Shown one piece after another: positions 673 to 7,295 of a stretch of 64,000 bases of DNA. The first letter of the stretch is position 1, and each line of letters starts with the position of its first letter. A model generated the notes under the pieces. That model made no database searches and was not told the origin of the DNA. It saw only the letters and a program-made list of their open reading frames with translations. The stretch lies in the NCBI RefSeq assembly GCF_009914755.1, contig NC_060925.1. One strand, 5' to 3'. The translations under genes and the position numbers were made by a program. The stretch is from the human T2T-CHM13v2.0 reference genome, Homo sapiens.

Positions 673-1394
673 ATGAATGGGATGGCCAATGTGAATCCCG
701 CCAGCCGCCCTCACTACGCCTCCGCCATCCCGGTGCCTCGTGCCTCTTCCCAGACCAGGATTCCTACACCGGGCGCTTCTCCCCAGCTGCGGCCACGCCA
801 GGCCGGCCTGGCCCTGAGCCCACAGAGAGCAGCCTCCCCCAGACTGGGAAAGGCTGCAGGTCCTTCTAGAAACTCCTCTCCTAGGGCCTTCCGGGGGAGA
901 GGCTCTCCCAAGTTTGCTGGGGCGGTGAGGGAGTCAGCTGAGGATGGGGAAGGCCCCTTCAGCTCCCCATGGAATAGTCCCAGGACAACCCCGAAAGCAG
1001 CCCTCTCCAGCCGGGCTGGATCCGGAAGAATTGGCGAGAGACAAGGCACCCAGGGAAAGAAGAAAAAAGCCCAGGAAGGGACTCCAGTCTGCCAGACCCG
1101 GGGCAGAAGCCCTTCTCGGACGAGCTTTCACGGAGAAACTCAAATACCAGGGGCTCCGGAAGGTCGGAAGCCTCCAAGCTGCCCAGGAAAAGACCAAAGA
1201 GATATAAACTACAAAAGTTCTGGGACCCCCAGGTCTTTGGAGCCTGATGAGGGGGCAGCTTCGTGGGCTTCCTCTCCAGTCTGCAGCCCAGTGCAGGGCA
1301 AGCGCCCCTCTCCCTCTCCGGGGGCCATTAGCTTCTCCTCAGTCCATCAGCAGAGTCAGCCAGTCACAGCCACGGTGGCCCCCTTCCAGTACAG
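673..1394 (+). CDS. NAV1: NAV1 upstream alternative coding exon A (exon 641-1394, ATG 673); Ser/Pro/Arg-rich basic disordered N-terminal extension
   Basis: Acceptor tctttttttgccctctctccctgcag|GAC (exon starts 641). ATG 673 in accATGa context and a second in-frame gggATGg at 682. Frame is open to donor CAG|gtgagc (exon ends 1394, phase 2). Ends in TATVAPFQY-R, resembling the NAV2/NAV3 TATVAPF(L/I)YR motif as I recall it. Confidence 0.8.
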
Positions 1395-2124
1395 GTGAGC
1401 TGGGGAGCAGGCAGGGAGGGAAGGGGGAAGAGCCATGCTGGGACCAAGGGGCAAGCCGGAAGAGGACAGGGACCCTGGTGATCAGTGGCTGGTAAAGACC
1501 AGAGGGCCCCAGGCGATACAAAAAGAAGTTAGGTAGGTGGAGGCCTACAGAGTTGGGGGCTTGGAGAGCTGAGATGGGATTGGGACCATAAAAGGGGACG
1601 CTGACTGAAGCTCTGATCTTTCTCGACTGTGGGGAATCCACAACAAAAAGAGTCTCATAAGGAGGGTACCCCTAAAATGTCCATTTTTGCTCTCTGGAAC
1701 AATATAAAGATTGGGATGTCGTGGAAGCTTAAGCAGCTAGATACATAGGCAGTGTCAGTCTCACCCAATTCATTGTGGGACATTTGCCAACATTGTGAGT
1801 TAGACCAACTCTATTGGCTTGGGCACTGCGCCTTTACTTAGTAAGTAAAATCTACACTGCTTGTTGCACTCATACCTTGTACCTGTCTGTCTGTCTCTCA
1901 CTCGTTTGCTCACTCCATTTGCTATAGTGCCTTGTGCATATCTGCTTATGTGCCTGGCATATCAGGAATTAGTAATGCTTTAGACAGACAGGTGTTGACA
2001 TCCTTGTTGGTGGAGGTGGCCAGTCCAGTATTCACAACAAGATGGCCAACAAGCTAGTACATCCAGCTTTTTTCAGACACTGCAAGTTGATTGCATAGAA
2101 AAACAAACGCTTAGTCAACTACGC

Positions 2125-2433
2125 TTTTTTTTTTTTTTTTTTTTTTTTTGAGATGGCATCTCACTCTATCGCCCAGGCTGGAGTACAGTGGTGCGATCTC
2201 GGCTCACTGCAACCTCCGCCTCCCAGGTTCACGCCATTCTCCTGCCTCAGCCTCCCAAGTAGCTGGGACTACAGGCGCCCACCACCACACCTGGCTAATT
2301 TTTTTTTGTATTTTTAGTAGAGACAGGGTTTCACTGTGTTAGCCAGCATGGTCTCGATCTCCTGACCTCGTGATCCGCCCACCTCAGCCTCCCAAAGTGC
2401 TGGGATTACAGGCGTGAGCCACCGCACCCAGCA
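2125..2433 (-). mobile_element. Alu SINE (AluY/Sc-like), full length
   Basis: Poly-T followed by the reverse Alu body; TSD aacta(c/t)gc on both sides. Confidence 0.95.
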
Positions 2434-2789
2434 AACTATGCTTTTTTTAAAAAATAAAAATATAATTATACTAAAAAGACTTCAGTAAGTACACTAAATT
2501 TTAATTACTAATTATTATATAGTTTAGAAATGCCCAAATGCAAATTAAGTATCTTCCTGACTAAACTAACTTCCTATATTTTTTCCCCTATGCTAATGGA
2601 AGGAGAAACTCTCACTTATATTTTGGGCATAGAAAAGCTTGTACATCATCCCTTACACACCAGGGACCTCTGAGGCATCAGAGCGGCTGGAGGTGGGGGT
2701 AGGGAACCACTAGGAGCTTTAACCTTCAGCAGAAGGCAACTTGTGTATCTTAATCTCTGAAAAATTGAATGCAATTTAATATTACAGGA

Positions 2790-3240
2790 CTAGGCCTTTG
2801 GAGTTCAGGACAAGGAAGTGAATGGTCCCAATACACTCTGCACATGTTTAGGCTTCATTTAGACTGTTACATTCAGTTGTGAACACCACGTTTTAAAAGG
2901 ACATCGACATACAAAAACACATGTAGAGCAAGACTGACACGTTGCTGGGGGATCAAAAAAGGTGTTATAGGATGATGAAAGGAACTGAAGAAGTTTGCTT
3001 TGGAAAGGAAGGCTTAGAGAGGGTCTGAGCACTGTTTTCAAATATTTGAAGGGCTGTCATGTTGTAAGATGAATTAGATTTACTTGGTGCAGCTCCAAAG
3101 ACCTGACTCATCACCATGGTGGTTAGAAGTTAGTTCAAGACAGATTTGAGGCTCAAGAGCAAGAACTTTCCAAAAAGTAGAGAGGATTACAAATTGACCG
3201 GAAGGCAGTGAACTCCCTGTTATTGCAAGAATTCTGACTT
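2790..3240 (+). mobile_element. Ancient CR1/L3 LINE 3' fragment
   Basis: aaatatttgaagggctgtcatg...gaattagatt...ggaagtta...cagattt...agaactttc pattern resembles the L3 3' consensus; boundaries approximate. Confidence 0.6.
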
Positions 3241-5059: not shown

Positions 5060-5368
5060 TCTTTTTCTTTTTTTTTTTGAAATGGAGTCTCACTCTGTCG
5101 CCCAGGCTGGAGTGCAGTAGCACGATCTCGGCTCACTGCAACATCCACCTCCCTGGTTCAAGCGATCCTCCTGCCTCAGCCTCCCGAGTAGCTGAGATTA
5201 CAGGCATGCACCACCAAGCCTGGCTAATTTTTGTATTTTTAGTAGAGGCGGGGTTTCGCCATGTTTGCCAGGCTGGTCTCAAACTCCTGACTTCAAGTGA
5301 TCCATCCGCCCCGGCCCCCCCACCCTAAGTACTGGGATTATAGAAATGAGCCACTGCACCCGTCTGCC
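5060..5368 (-). mobile_element. Alu SINE (AluS-like)
   Basis: Reverse Alu dimer; TSD tattc(c/t)tattttt. Confidence 0.92.
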
Positions 5369-5646
5369 TATTCTTATTTTTAACACTGGTTATTGCATAC
5401 CTGCTCTGGCCCAGACGCTGTGCTTAGCTCTTTACATATATGATGTTAATCAATGAAACAGTTGACACATTATATAGAATTCCCTCTCCCCAGTAGAATT
5501 TTCTGTTACTTTCTCACCAATATGTTGCATCCCCTACTTCAAAATCCCAGGTCCATTCTAATTTCTTCCAAGAAACCAACCAACCCCAGTCTTTCTTTAT
5601 CCCCTTGGCACTTGTGTACTTGGACAGACATTTAATTGACAATAAG

Positions 5647-5944
5647 AGCCTGGTGCAGTGGCTCACACCTGTAATTCCAGCACTTTGAGAGGCTGAGGTG
5701 GGCAGATCTCGAGCTCAGGAGTTCGAGACCAGCCTGGGCGACATGGCAAAACCCCATCTCTACAAAAAATATGAAAATCAGCTAGGCGTGGTAGCTTGAG
5801 CCTGTAATCCCAGCTACTTGAGAGGCTGAGGTGGGAGGATCATTTAAGCTCAGGAAATCAAGGCTGTAGTGAGCCTTGATCATACCACTGTGCTCCAGCC
5901 TGAGTGACACAGTGAGACCCTGTGTCAAAAAAAAAAAAAAAAAA
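5647..5944 (+). mobile_element. Alu SINE (AluJ-like)
   Basis: Dimeric Alu with A tail. Confidence 0.92.
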
Positions 5945-7191
5945 GAGAGACAGTAGTACATGGCGATTGTCCCCATCATACCAAGCACCCCCAGGGGCCA
6001 GGATGAGGCCTCCTGCTTTCTCTAACGACACCCCACCCTGCACTATCCCCATCATTCACCTGAGGGGCCTGAGATACAAAAGAGCTCAGCACTGCCTAAA
6101 TAGCTTAGAAAAAGCTGAGCAGAAGCAGCAAACACCTCACAACCCTAGACTGTAAAACAGATCCCAGCCTTGAGGGGCATCTTTTCACCCCATGATGGAA
6201 GCCGGACCCAGAGAGGAGAAGAGATCTACTCCAGGTTATACAGTGAGTTAATGGCAAAATTGAGCCCAGAGTCCCGGCCATCTAGGCATTGAAAAAAGTG
6301 AAAACTGGAGAGAGAGAAAGACAAATCTCAGTGGCACTGGAGACTCTCAGGGTTCCATGGCCCAGCCCTTCAATTTCCCCTCCTGCCTGCACAGCCCTCC
6401 CCTCCCCCTCCTGCCAAGCTGCCAAAGTCTCCATTTAGCTGGAGACAGCGGGCGGATGGGTGGGCGGGCCAGCTCCCAGAGCCTAGGGTAATTGCCTATA
6501 ATGAAAGCTCCCACAGCCTTTGTTCCTGGGAGCAACTGTACGGTTGAGGTTGTGCTCAGAGGTCTGTGTGCACTTGGGAGCTGGTGCCCAGAGACCTCAC
6601 CCTTCCCTCCTGCTACCACAACGGGCCCAGCAAGAGACCTGTCCTCCCGGGAGTCACTGTGATTGCAGCTGAGCCTACTCCTCCTTCTTTCCTGACCTAC
6701 AAGCTGCCTGGACTACGAGCAAGCCCAAAGCCTGTGTGCCCCCTGAGCTACCAGGAATCAGTGACTTCAGCTTCAGAGGGAGCTCTTCCCTGTGTATATG
6801 TACATGGCTGTACATACATGCTCATCCTGAGGGCAAGGATCCTGGCAAGACAAAGGACCCAAGGCCTGGAGTTGCTAGGGTATCCCTCTGCCCTATAAGT
6901 GATAACGTTCCTGGGAAATGGGTAGACTGTAGAATGTCAAGGGGTGACAAGCATCGGGCATCCCAGTATCCTCTGGGGCTCCCTGCCTGGCGCAGCTTTG
7001 CACAGAAGGCCTGCTGCCTGCTGGAGGGCAGGCATGTGCACATACCCATCAGGGAGGGGCTGGCCCTGAGTGGTGCAGGGCACTATCAGAGAAGAAGAAC
7101 CAAGTTCTAAGAGGGTTTTCTTAGCCCCATGGAGGGGCTTAGAGACCAGGACATCTCTACCATGAGTGACTACCCTTTCTTGGTCCCACAG

Positions 7192-7295
7192 GTTGCAAAC
7201 TGACCAGAAACCTGGCCCCCTCTCCCAGGGCAGCTGGCCCCTTGATGGCTATGCTGAGCCCCTCCATGAGACTGAGGAGAGCTTCTCCTGCATGG
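7192..7295 (+). CDS. NAV1: NAV1 upstream alternative coding exon B (104 nt; R-LQTDQKPGPLSQGSWPLDGYAEPLHETEESFSCM-D)
   Basis: Acceptor ccctttcttggtcccacag|G and donor ATGG|gtaagt. Phase 2 entry completes the AG+G Arg codon from exon A. No stop codon; phase 1 exit matches the acceptor at 26426. Too short for the ORF track. Confidence 0.8.

What the first reader, a model, noticed from the sequence alone, without database searches (positions are those of the whole stretch)
1345..7295. Upstream exons look like the ancestral NAV2/NAV3-type 5' region, so the canonical exon 1 may be the derived insert
Seen: exon A ends QQSQPVTATVAPFQYR and exon B continues LQTD for 34 aa, ending in phase 1. From memory, NAV2/NAV3 contain HPNTATVAPF(L/I)YR followed by about 40 aa (NAV2: SQTD...) and then the conserved DPExRRxRTVxNxxDLRQNLEETMSSLRG segment, which in NAV1 begins the exon after canonical exon 1. 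Inference: exons A and B are paralogous to the NAV2/3 exons preceding that segment. NAV1 would then have kept part of the ancestral N-terminus, and the CpG-island exon would be an internal promoter exon wedged into it.
Basis: partly seen in the sequence, partly recalled or inferred. Interest (0 to 1): 0.72.

Follow-up and report, generated by a model that had tools for sequence, protein, structure and literature searches.

The report
NAV1 upstream exons are ancestral
Two upstream coding exons of human NAV1 are old counterparts of exons in its sister genes NAV2 and NAV3, but the usual first exon of NAV1 is also old, because NAV3 has the same exon in the same place.

Summary
Exon A (641-1394) ends ...QQSQPVTATVAPFQY plus AG. 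Exon B (7192-7295) supplies the G of that Arg codon, then LQTD... for 34 codons, and ends in phase 1.

The paralogy is supported. A back-translated TATVAPFxY pattern hits the whole human genome 3 times, in NAV1, NAV2 and NAV3, with 0 control hits. Each hit is followed by AG|gt at the identical position. All three exons also share an S-A-I-P motif near their start. NAV2 and NAV3 each have one small phase 2-to-1 exon (37 and 38 whole codons) before the DPE...EETMSSLRG exon.

The claim that canonical exon 1 is a derived insert is not supported. Exon C (26426-27217) has a reciprocal-best homologue inside NAV3, between NAV3's exons B and D, with the same donor phase (BLASTP 2e-16). That NAV3 exon starts annotated CH-less NAV3 isoforms, from human to catshark models.

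The features likely derived in NAV1 are loss of the CH-coding part, a start codon inside exon A, a CpG island at exon C, and an acceptor that lets exon C be spliced internally (A-B-C-D). Predicted A-B-D isoforms also exist.

The exons are already annotated, so interest is modest. Fish nav1 was not examined.

The parts
641..1394 (+). NAV1 exon A. It is an internal exon whose first 32 nt are untranslated, with CDS from the ATG at 673. It is the paralogue of the large post-CH exon of NAV2 (C11:20053866-20054967) and NAV3 (C12:77984789-77985815).
   Evidence: The NAV2/NAV3 acceptors are my inference from AG, a pyrimidine tract and the reading frame.
646..648 (+). In-frame TAG upstream of the start codon. 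It marks where ancestral coding sequence has become 5'UTR in human.
   Evidence: Q*PTLPALQTMNGMANVN....
721..732 (+). S-A-I-P, an SxIP-type motif in the context YASAIPVPR (basic residue present, no acidic residue). It is shared with NAV2 (SSAIPQP) and NAV3 (ASAIPSP).
   Evidence: invariant columns. In one search the pattern Y[AG]S[AS]IP[VI]PR is present in 106 of 120 and 70 of 73 NAV1 models.
1366..1394 (+). TATVAPFQY plus AG of the split Arg codon. The motif and the donor position are invariant in NAV1, NAV2 and NAV3.
   Evidence: 3 genome hits, 0 control; TAC AG|gt in all three.
1395..7191 (+). Phase-2 intron between exons A and B. It holds masked repeats and a RefSeq enhancer at 6225-6726 according to the hub table. 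I did not study it.
   Evidence: hub annotation.
7192..7295 (+). NAV1 exon B: G, 34 codons, G (phase 2 in, phase 1 out). It is the positional counterpart of NAV2 C11:20060353-20060465 (113 nt) and NAV3 C12:78000118-78000233 (116 nt).
   Evidence: The sequence similarity itself is not significant.
26426..27217 (+). Exon C, the canonical first exon (TSS 26458 per the hub, ATG at 26461). In NM_001389617.1 it is used as an internal exon through the acceptor ...cctgcag|AC at 26424-26425. It is 792 nt, phase 1 to 1, and ends CTG G|gtaagt. It is homologous to the NAV3 alternative first exon at C12:78015225-78015746.
26426..26460 (+). Leader that is translated (D)ARIVHALLAGR only in the A-B-C-D form. 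It is not conserved in the turtle A-B-C-D model.
   Evidence: (Lynx P0045).
25601..28600 (.). CpG-rich stretch around exon C. Exon C plus 500 bp each side has GC 0.66 and CpG o/e 0.71. The NAV3 counterpart has GC 0.44 and o/e 0.28.

Best explanation
Human NAV1 keeps the 5' exon layout of the vertebrate navigator gene from the large post-CH exon onward. The order is exon A (SxIP region ending TATVAPFxYR), small exon B, an alternative first exon C driven by an internal promoter, then exon D (DPE..EETMSSLRG).

Two kinds of transcript result. A distal promoter about 83 kb upstream gives transcripts that start translation inside exon A and splice A-B-D or A-B-C-D. The proximal CpG-island promoter at exon C gives the classic 1877-aa protein.

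Both N-termini are ancestral. A and B are shared with NAV2 and NAV3. C is shared with NAV3.

The derived features in NAV1 are these: the CH-domain coding part was lost; a new ATG arose inside exon A, with a stop codon just upstream in human; exon C gained a CpG island and about 66 extra N-terminal residues; and an acceptor in front of exon C allows it to be included as a phase 1-1 cassette.

Inferred function, not shown: the 287-aa extension adds a conserved SxIP-type motif, which would be a candidate EB-binding and plus-end-tracking element, and the invariant TATVAPFxYR motif to a navigator that lacks the CH domain.
For: Exon A motif and donor: one search found the TATVAPFxY pattern only in NAV1, NAV2 and NAV3 (3 hits, 0 control). 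Searches show an identical donor, TAC AG|gt.

SAIP motif: searches show SAIP conserved near the start of all three exons.

Exon A scores: BLASTP on the C-terminal block gave E 6e-5 (13/24 identities) against NAV3 and E 0.002 (10/16) against NAV2. hhalign gave E 1.8e-5.

Exon B: searches show one small exon with the same phases in all three genes. NAV1 and NAV2 both begin xQTD.

Exon D: searches show three copies, each with a phase-1 acceptor and a CAC AG|gt donor.

Exon C: searches show NAV1 and NAV3 exon C as reciprocal best genome-wide hits. One search gave BLASTP 2e-16 (61/196 identities). One search shows the same donor phase and a position between B and D.

Gene models for NAV3: 82 of 91 hits have the C-D architecture, and 80 carry the exon-C motif within the first 60 residues. 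They include human XP_016875663.1 and turtle, bird, squamate, sturgeon, arowana and catshark models.

Gene models for NAV1: one search shows human XP_024306413.1 as A-B-D. In one search, 103 of 120 listed hits and 70 of 73 new hits are A-D, and 12 and 1 respectively are A-C-D (the 1 is a turtle). None of these 193 has the CH motif. No row listed or 48 carries PF00307.

Depth: searches show exon A conserved from caecilians and newts to mammals, with the MNGxANVN..HYAS[AS]IPVPR start.

CpG island: one search shows it in NAV1 only.
Against: Outside two short motifs, exon A cannot be aligned with NAV2/NAV3. A whole-genome search with exon A found neither paralogue at E <= 10, and hhalign aligned only 16 columns at 78% probability.

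Exon B similarity is not significant. NAV1 exon B did not find the NAV2 or NAV3 exon. NAV2 exon B found the NAV3 exon only at E 0.51, and found no NAV1 exon B. The phases of exon B are forced by its neighbours, so they are not independent evidence.

NAV2 has no detectable exon C. The exon's presence before the split of all three genes therefore depends on the gene tree, which I did not build.

Almost all cross-species support comes from predicted gene models capped at 2000 aa. No transcript or peptide data were seen.

Fish, shark and lamprey nav1 were not examined.

The role of the SxIP motif is inference only.
Confidence: 0.85

Rival explanations
1. One reading: exons A-B-D are ancestral, and the canonical CpG-island exon C is a NAV1-specific novelty inserted into the B-D intron.
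For: NAV2 has no exon C in its 6.7-kb B-D interval. The canonical NAV2/NAV3-type junction B-D also exists in NAV1 models. The CpG island is NAV1-specific.
Against: NAV3 carries a homologous exon at the same relative place with the same donor phase. It is conserved as a first exon from human to catshark models.
Confidence: 0.04
2. The similarity of exon A to NAV2/NAV3 is a short convergent or chance motif, or a later exon transfer, rather than retained ancestry.
For: Only about 16-24 residues align significantly. The middle of the exon is low-complexity and not alignable.
Against: The pattern occurs genome-wide only in the three navigator genes, with 0 control hits. The codon-exact donor is the same in all three. 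There is a second shared motif (SAIP) near the other end of the exon. The order of the following exons is the same. Exon A is conserved across tetrapods.
Confidence: 0.03
3. Exons A and B are decaying relics that are spliced into rare transcripts and make no functional protein. On this view the long models are annotation artefacts.
For: No transcript or peptide evidence was seen here. Identity among mammals falls to 65%. The literature searched uses only the 1877-aa form.
Against: The open frame, the MNGxANVN start, the SxIP block and the TATVAPFxYR block are kept from amphibians to human in 173 A-D and 13 A-C-D models. According to the hub table, RefSeq selected the long transcript NM_001389617.1.
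Confidence: 0.06

Closest known systems
The large post-CH exon and following small exon of human NAV2 and NAV3 (the N-terminal SxIP region of the navigators)
   Same: Identical donor position and phase after TATVAPFxY-R. Shared SAIP motif. A small phase 2-to-1 exon follows, then the DPE..EETMSSLRG exon.
   Different: NAV1 exon A is shorter (240 coding codons, against 366 and 341). It lacks the KPWRSKS..KHSAT, QKSMLEK and SKIAS[FL]IPKG blocks that NAV2 and NAV3 share. It starts translation internally, and no CH-domain exons lie upstream in its reading frame.
CH-less NAV3 isoforms that begin at an internal first exon (e.g. human XP_016875663.1, listed as neuron navigator 3 isoform X15)
   Same: The exon is homologous to NAV1 canonical exon 1 (AELxVF, KQKSLTNLS, LGDLEQ blocks). 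It has the same donor phase and the same place between exons B and D.
   Different: The NAV3 exon has an in-frame TGA 8 codons before its ATG and no usable acceptor. It lies in no CpG island. It lacks the first ~66 residues of the NAV1 exon. No NAV3 model reads A-C-D apart from one ab initio eel model.
Long and short UNC-53 isoforms of C. elegans made from alternative promoters (recalled; not seen in any call)
   Same: The same logic: a CH-containing form and a CH-less form produced from one navigator gene.
   Different: Homology of the internal first exons was not tested. My search found no paper that I then read on this point.

Membership tests
Navigator post-CH N-terminal exon (NAV2/NAV3 type) | PxTATVAPFxY motif ending the exon, with the Arg codon split AG|G by a phase-2 intron | tested here: met
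Navigator post-CH N-terminal exon (NAV2/NAV3 type) | SxIP-type motif [AS]SAIPxP about 27-36 codons after the acceptor | tested here: met
   EB binding itself was not tested.
Navigator post-CH N-terminal exon (NAV2/NAV3 type) | The central blocks that NAV2 and NAV3 share (KPWRSKS..KHSAT, QKSMLEK, SKIASxIPKG, SGIPKPG) | tested here: not met
   invariant between NAV2 and NAV3, absent from NAV1 exon A.
Navigator post-CH N-terminal exon (NAV2/NAV3 type) | Followed by one small exon (phase 2 to 1) and then the DPE..EETMSSLRG exon (phase 1 to 2) | tested here: met
CH-domain-bearing navigator (NAV2, NAV3, Sickie, UNC-53 long form) | N-terminal calponin-homology domain | tested here: not met
   The YTDWANHY pattern hits only C11 and C12. 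0 of 193 NAV1 long models carry the motif. No row listed or 48 has PF00307. There is an in-frame TAG upstream of the ATG.
Conserved alternative first exon (internal promoter) of navigators | Homologous exon between exons B and D, with a phase-1 donor, starting a CH-less isoform | tested here: met
   Met for NAV1 and NAV3. Not found in NAV2.
Any Pfam family | A curated domain model matches exons A, B, C or their paralogues | tested here: not met
   0 of 6 proteins matched any family at E <= 0.1.

The most novel reading that the evidence does not exclude
The navigator gene already had two promoters before the vertebrate genome duplications. A distal promoter made a CH-SxIP form, and an internal promoter with an exon-C-type first exon made a CH-less form. 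NAV1 then specialised in the CH-less programme but kept the SxIP exon. It also evolved a cassette use of the old first exon, so that one protein (A-B-C-D) carries both ancestral N-termini. If the internal first exon is also homologous to that of the invertebrate short isoforms (unc-53, sickie), the two-promoter design would be bilaterian-wide.
Probability: 0.3. Interest if true: 0.45.

Novelty: already known. Interest (0 to 1): 0.3.

Why it matters
The literature I read describes NAV1 simply as the navigator without a CH domain. The 2023 review (PMC9877351; sections 10 and 11 read, plus passages) analyses only the 1877-aa and 1483-aa forms. According to the hub table, the transcript RefSeq selected adds 287 residues. 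This report shows that these residues are the retained ancestral SxIP-bearing region, and that the classic N-terminus is an old internal-promoter exon shared with NAV3. Three practical consequences follow. Variant interpretation in NAV1 should consider exons A and B. Constructs used in cell biology lack a conserved candidate EB-binding motif. CH-less NAV3 isoforms may be the true functional counterparts of classic NAV1. This refines the annotation and evolutionary history of a known gene. It is not a new kind of element.

Tried and rejected
Whole-exon searches. Exon A against the genome found only itself at a significant level. I therefore used back-translated motifs instead.

Exon B by similarity. 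tblastn of NAV1 exon B against the NAV2 and NAV3 intervals did not find the true exons; the best E values (0.077 and 0.084) were at other places. The NAV2 exon was found with a splice-plus-QTD regular expression. The NAV3 exon was found as the top but non-significant hit of NAV2 exon B (E 0.51). NAV2 exon B did not find NAV1 exon B.

NAV2 exon C. I looked for it by genome search, by the KQKSLTNLS pattern (4 hits, of which 2 were NAV1 and NAV3 and 2 were reverse-strand hits on C2 and C7 that I took as chance), by a 2-sequence HMM (best E 0.82) and by a 77-sequence HMM (best E 0.7, with positive controls at 1.3e-59 and 1.1e-84). Nothing was found. Only the 16-kb interval from exon A to exon D of NAV2 was scanned locally.

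CH-exon relics upstream of NAV1. 

The representative search with exon A gave only 10 hits, all of them short fragments. One of them (P0133) served as the amphibian query.

Pfam gave nothing.

Literature searches for a description of the long isoform or of a shared internal promoter found nothing relevant. Maes et al. 2002 was not available to me and is cited only through the review.
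Full report
**What is in the window**

The window is the 5' part of human NAV1. Exon A (641-1394) follows a good acceptor (...ctctccctgcag|GA). An in-frame TAG lies at 646-648 and the ATG at 673. The exon encodes 240 residues ending ...SVHQQSQPVTATVAPFQY, followed by AG|gtgagc.

Exon B (7192-7295) starts with the G that completes the Arg codon. It reads LQTDQKPGPLSQGSWPLDGYAEPLHETEESFSCM and ends with one extra G before gtaagt.

Exon C (26426-27217) is entered through ...cctgcag|AC in the long transcript. 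It reads (D)ARIVHALLAGR and then the canonical MLGSSVKS...LGDLEQLLFSQML, and ends CTG G|gtaagt. It is 792 nt and phase 1 to 1, so its inclusion or skipping keeps the reading frame.

**Test of the paralogy of exon A**

A whole-genome search with the 240-aa exon A found only itself. The five other matches had E of 0.9 or more and lay elsewhere.

The back-translated motif T-A-T-V-A-P-F-x-Y, however, occurs exactly three times in the 3.1-Gb assembly: in NAV1, at C11:20054939 and at C12:77985787. There were 0 hits on the other strand and 0 in the reversed-pattern control. My own estimate from 17 specified bases is about 0.4 chance hits.

Reading the two loci shows large open exons that end ...NHPNTATVAPFLY and ...SHPNTATVAPFIY. 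Each is followed by AG|gtagga or AG|gtaagg, which is the same codon-exact, phase-2 donor as in NAV1.

The alignment and a DNA alignment show a second shared block near the start of the exons: [AS]SAIPxP, with CCTCNGCCATCCC invariant at the DNA level.

By BLASTP the C-terminal block scores E 6e-5 against NAV3 (13/24 identities) and E 0.002 against NAV2 (10/16). The SAIP block scores only E 0.39 and 0.059.

A profile of seven NAV1 exon-A sequences against the NAV2+NAV3 pair aligns just 16 columns (E 1.8e-5, probability 78%).

The middle of the exon has diverged beyond recognition. The blocks that NAV2 and NAV3 share there (KPWRSKS..KHSAT, QKSMLEK, SKIASxIPKG) are absent from NAV1.

**Exon B and exon D**

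The EETMSSLRG pattern also has exactly three genome hits and 0 control hits. It marks exon D in the three genes.

All three copies of exon D have a phase-1 acceptor: NAV1 ...accag|AC CCA GAG, NAV2 ...tag|GG GAA GAT CCT GAG, NAV3 ...tag|GT GAA GAC CCT GAA. All three end CAC AG|gt.

Between exons A and D, NAV2 has one exon...gaag|G TCT CAG ACG GAC... It encodes SQTDTEGNVTAESSSTGVSVEPSHFTKTGQPALEELT plus G, and is 113 nt. NAV3 also has one...ttcag|G GCA CAT... It encodes AHSENEGTALPSADSCTSPTKMDLSYSKTAKQCLEEIS plus G, and is 116 nt.

Their sequence similarity to NAV1 exon B is not significant. Their phases are forced by the neighbouring exons. The support for exon B is therefore positional: one small acidic and Ser-rich exon in the same slot, with xQTD shared by NAV1 and NAV2.

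Neither is met.

**Exon C is not a NAV1 novelty**

Searching the genome with exon C gave one significant hit besides itself: C12:78015207-78015746 (E 9.5e-8, 34% identity, residues 63-263). This hit lies inside NAV3, between NAV3's exons B (78000118-78000233) and D (pattern match at 78028419).

The reverse search returns NAV1 exon C (E 6.4e-8). Direct BLASTP gives 2e-16 with 61/196 identities.

The NAV3 exon opens with an ATG 8 codons after an in-frame TGA. It has no pyrimidine tract or usable acceptor. It ends TTA G|gtaagt, the same phase as in NAV1.

Ninety-one database proteins match the NAV3 exon. Of these, 82 have the C-D architecture, 2 have C only, 6 have D only and 1 has CH-C-D. Eighty carry the KxKSLTNL block within the first 60 residues. 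They include human models named neuron navigator 3 isoform X15, X28 and X29, and models from other mammals, turtles, birds, squamates, sturgeon, arowana and a catshark.

The multi-species alignment shows four shared blocks in NAV1 and NAV3: AELxVF, (R/Q)KQKSLTNL, LSKxLSxSxxSL and (V/I)xT(V/M)LGDLEQxL. The sturgeon and catshark NAV3 sequences even keep an EVK..NK stretch that is otherwise seen only in NAV1.

An ab initio eel model (P0296) runs CH ... TATVAPYMYR - exon B - exon C - exon D. This shows the same genomic order in a teleost NAV3, whatever the merit of that model.

Human NAV2 has no detectable exon C in its interval from exon A to exon D, nor genome-wide. The positive controls for the 77-sequence HMM scored 1.3e-59 and 1.1e-84.

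**What looks derived in NAV1**

- The CH part is gone. The CH motif pattern hits only NAV2 and NAV3. None of 193 long NAV1 models has it. No listed row carries PF00307.
- Translation starts inside exon A. The start MNGxANVN..HYAS[AS]IPVPR is shared from caecilian and newt to human.
- Exon C sits in a CpG island in NAV1 (GC 0.66-0.68, o/e 0.71-0.86) but not in NAV3 (GC 0.44-0.53, o/e 0.28).
- About 66 residues before the position of NAV3's ATG are NAV1-specific.
- NAV1 exon C can be spliced internally. Twelve of the 120 listed hits and one turtle model read A-C-D, while 103 and 70 read A-D.
- Human XP_024306413.1 (1900 aa) reads ...FQYRLQTD...SFSCMDPESQRKRTV, which is the NAV2/NAV3-type B-D junction.

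**Likely working**

Shown: the exon anatomy, the conservation and the paralogy.

Inferred: two promoters give N-terminally different NAV1 proteins. The extension contributes a conserved SxIP-type motif (YASAIPVPR). It meets the sequence criteria quoted in the review, namely [ST]x[IL]P with a basic and no acidic neighbour. It also contributes the invariant TATVAPFxYR motif of unknown partner. No Pfam model covers any of these exons.

**Known or new**

According to the hub table, the exons are in RefSeq's selected transcript. Predicted A-B-D, A-B-C-D and NAV3 C-D isoforms are in public databases. In that sense the feature is known.

In the 2023 review I read sections 10 and 11 and searched passages. 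It treats only the 1877-aa and 1483-aa NAV1 forms, and it repeats that NAV1 lost the CH domain secondarily. It does not mention the retained upstream exons or an exon shared with NAV3.

Full-text searches found no paper on either point. Subscription papers such as Maes et al. 2002 were not searchable.

**Verdict**

This is a modest refinement of the history of a known gene.

Noticed in passing
window 641-672; proteins P0115 (mouse) and P0120 (rat): Rodent models extend the reading frame upstream of the MNG/MSG start (for example MQGQTQDPSAALPLLLTMSGMANVN in mouse). Human has an in-frame TAG at 646-648. The start of the long isoform may therefore differ between lineages.
   Followed up: partly
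P0296 (Conger conger model): An ab initio eel protein joins the CH domain, a TATVAPYMYR exon, exon B, what looks like read-through sequence, exon C and exon D in one chain. It is either a true A-B-C-D form of a fish NAV3 or a gene-model artefact.
   Followed up: partly
P0166-P0168 (Alligator mississippiensis): Proteins with the NAV1-type exon A are named neuron navigator 3 isoform A/B/C by one source and neuron navigator 1 by another. This is a naming inconsistency in public records.
   Followed up: no
window 26461-26658: The first ~66 residues of canonical NAV1 (MLGSS...GGGGG) have no counterpart in NAV3. NAV3's ATG aligns with the third in-frame Met of NAV1 exon C (MAKASAAELKVF). The turtle NAV1 model has a shorter version of this segment.
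   Followed up: partly
window 757-768: A second [ST]x[IL]P match (T-R-I-P) follows the SAIP motif in human. It is not kept in the opossum, reptile or amphibian sequences.
   Followed up: partly
window 6225-6726: A RefSeq-listed enhancer lies in the A-B intron just upstream of exon B. I did not examine it.
   Followed up: no
G000:C1:200819433-200819627 (-), L012: A weak match of exon C (E 1.25, with 4 stops) about 60 kb upstream of the window, within the NAV1 span. I took it as chance.
   Followed up: no
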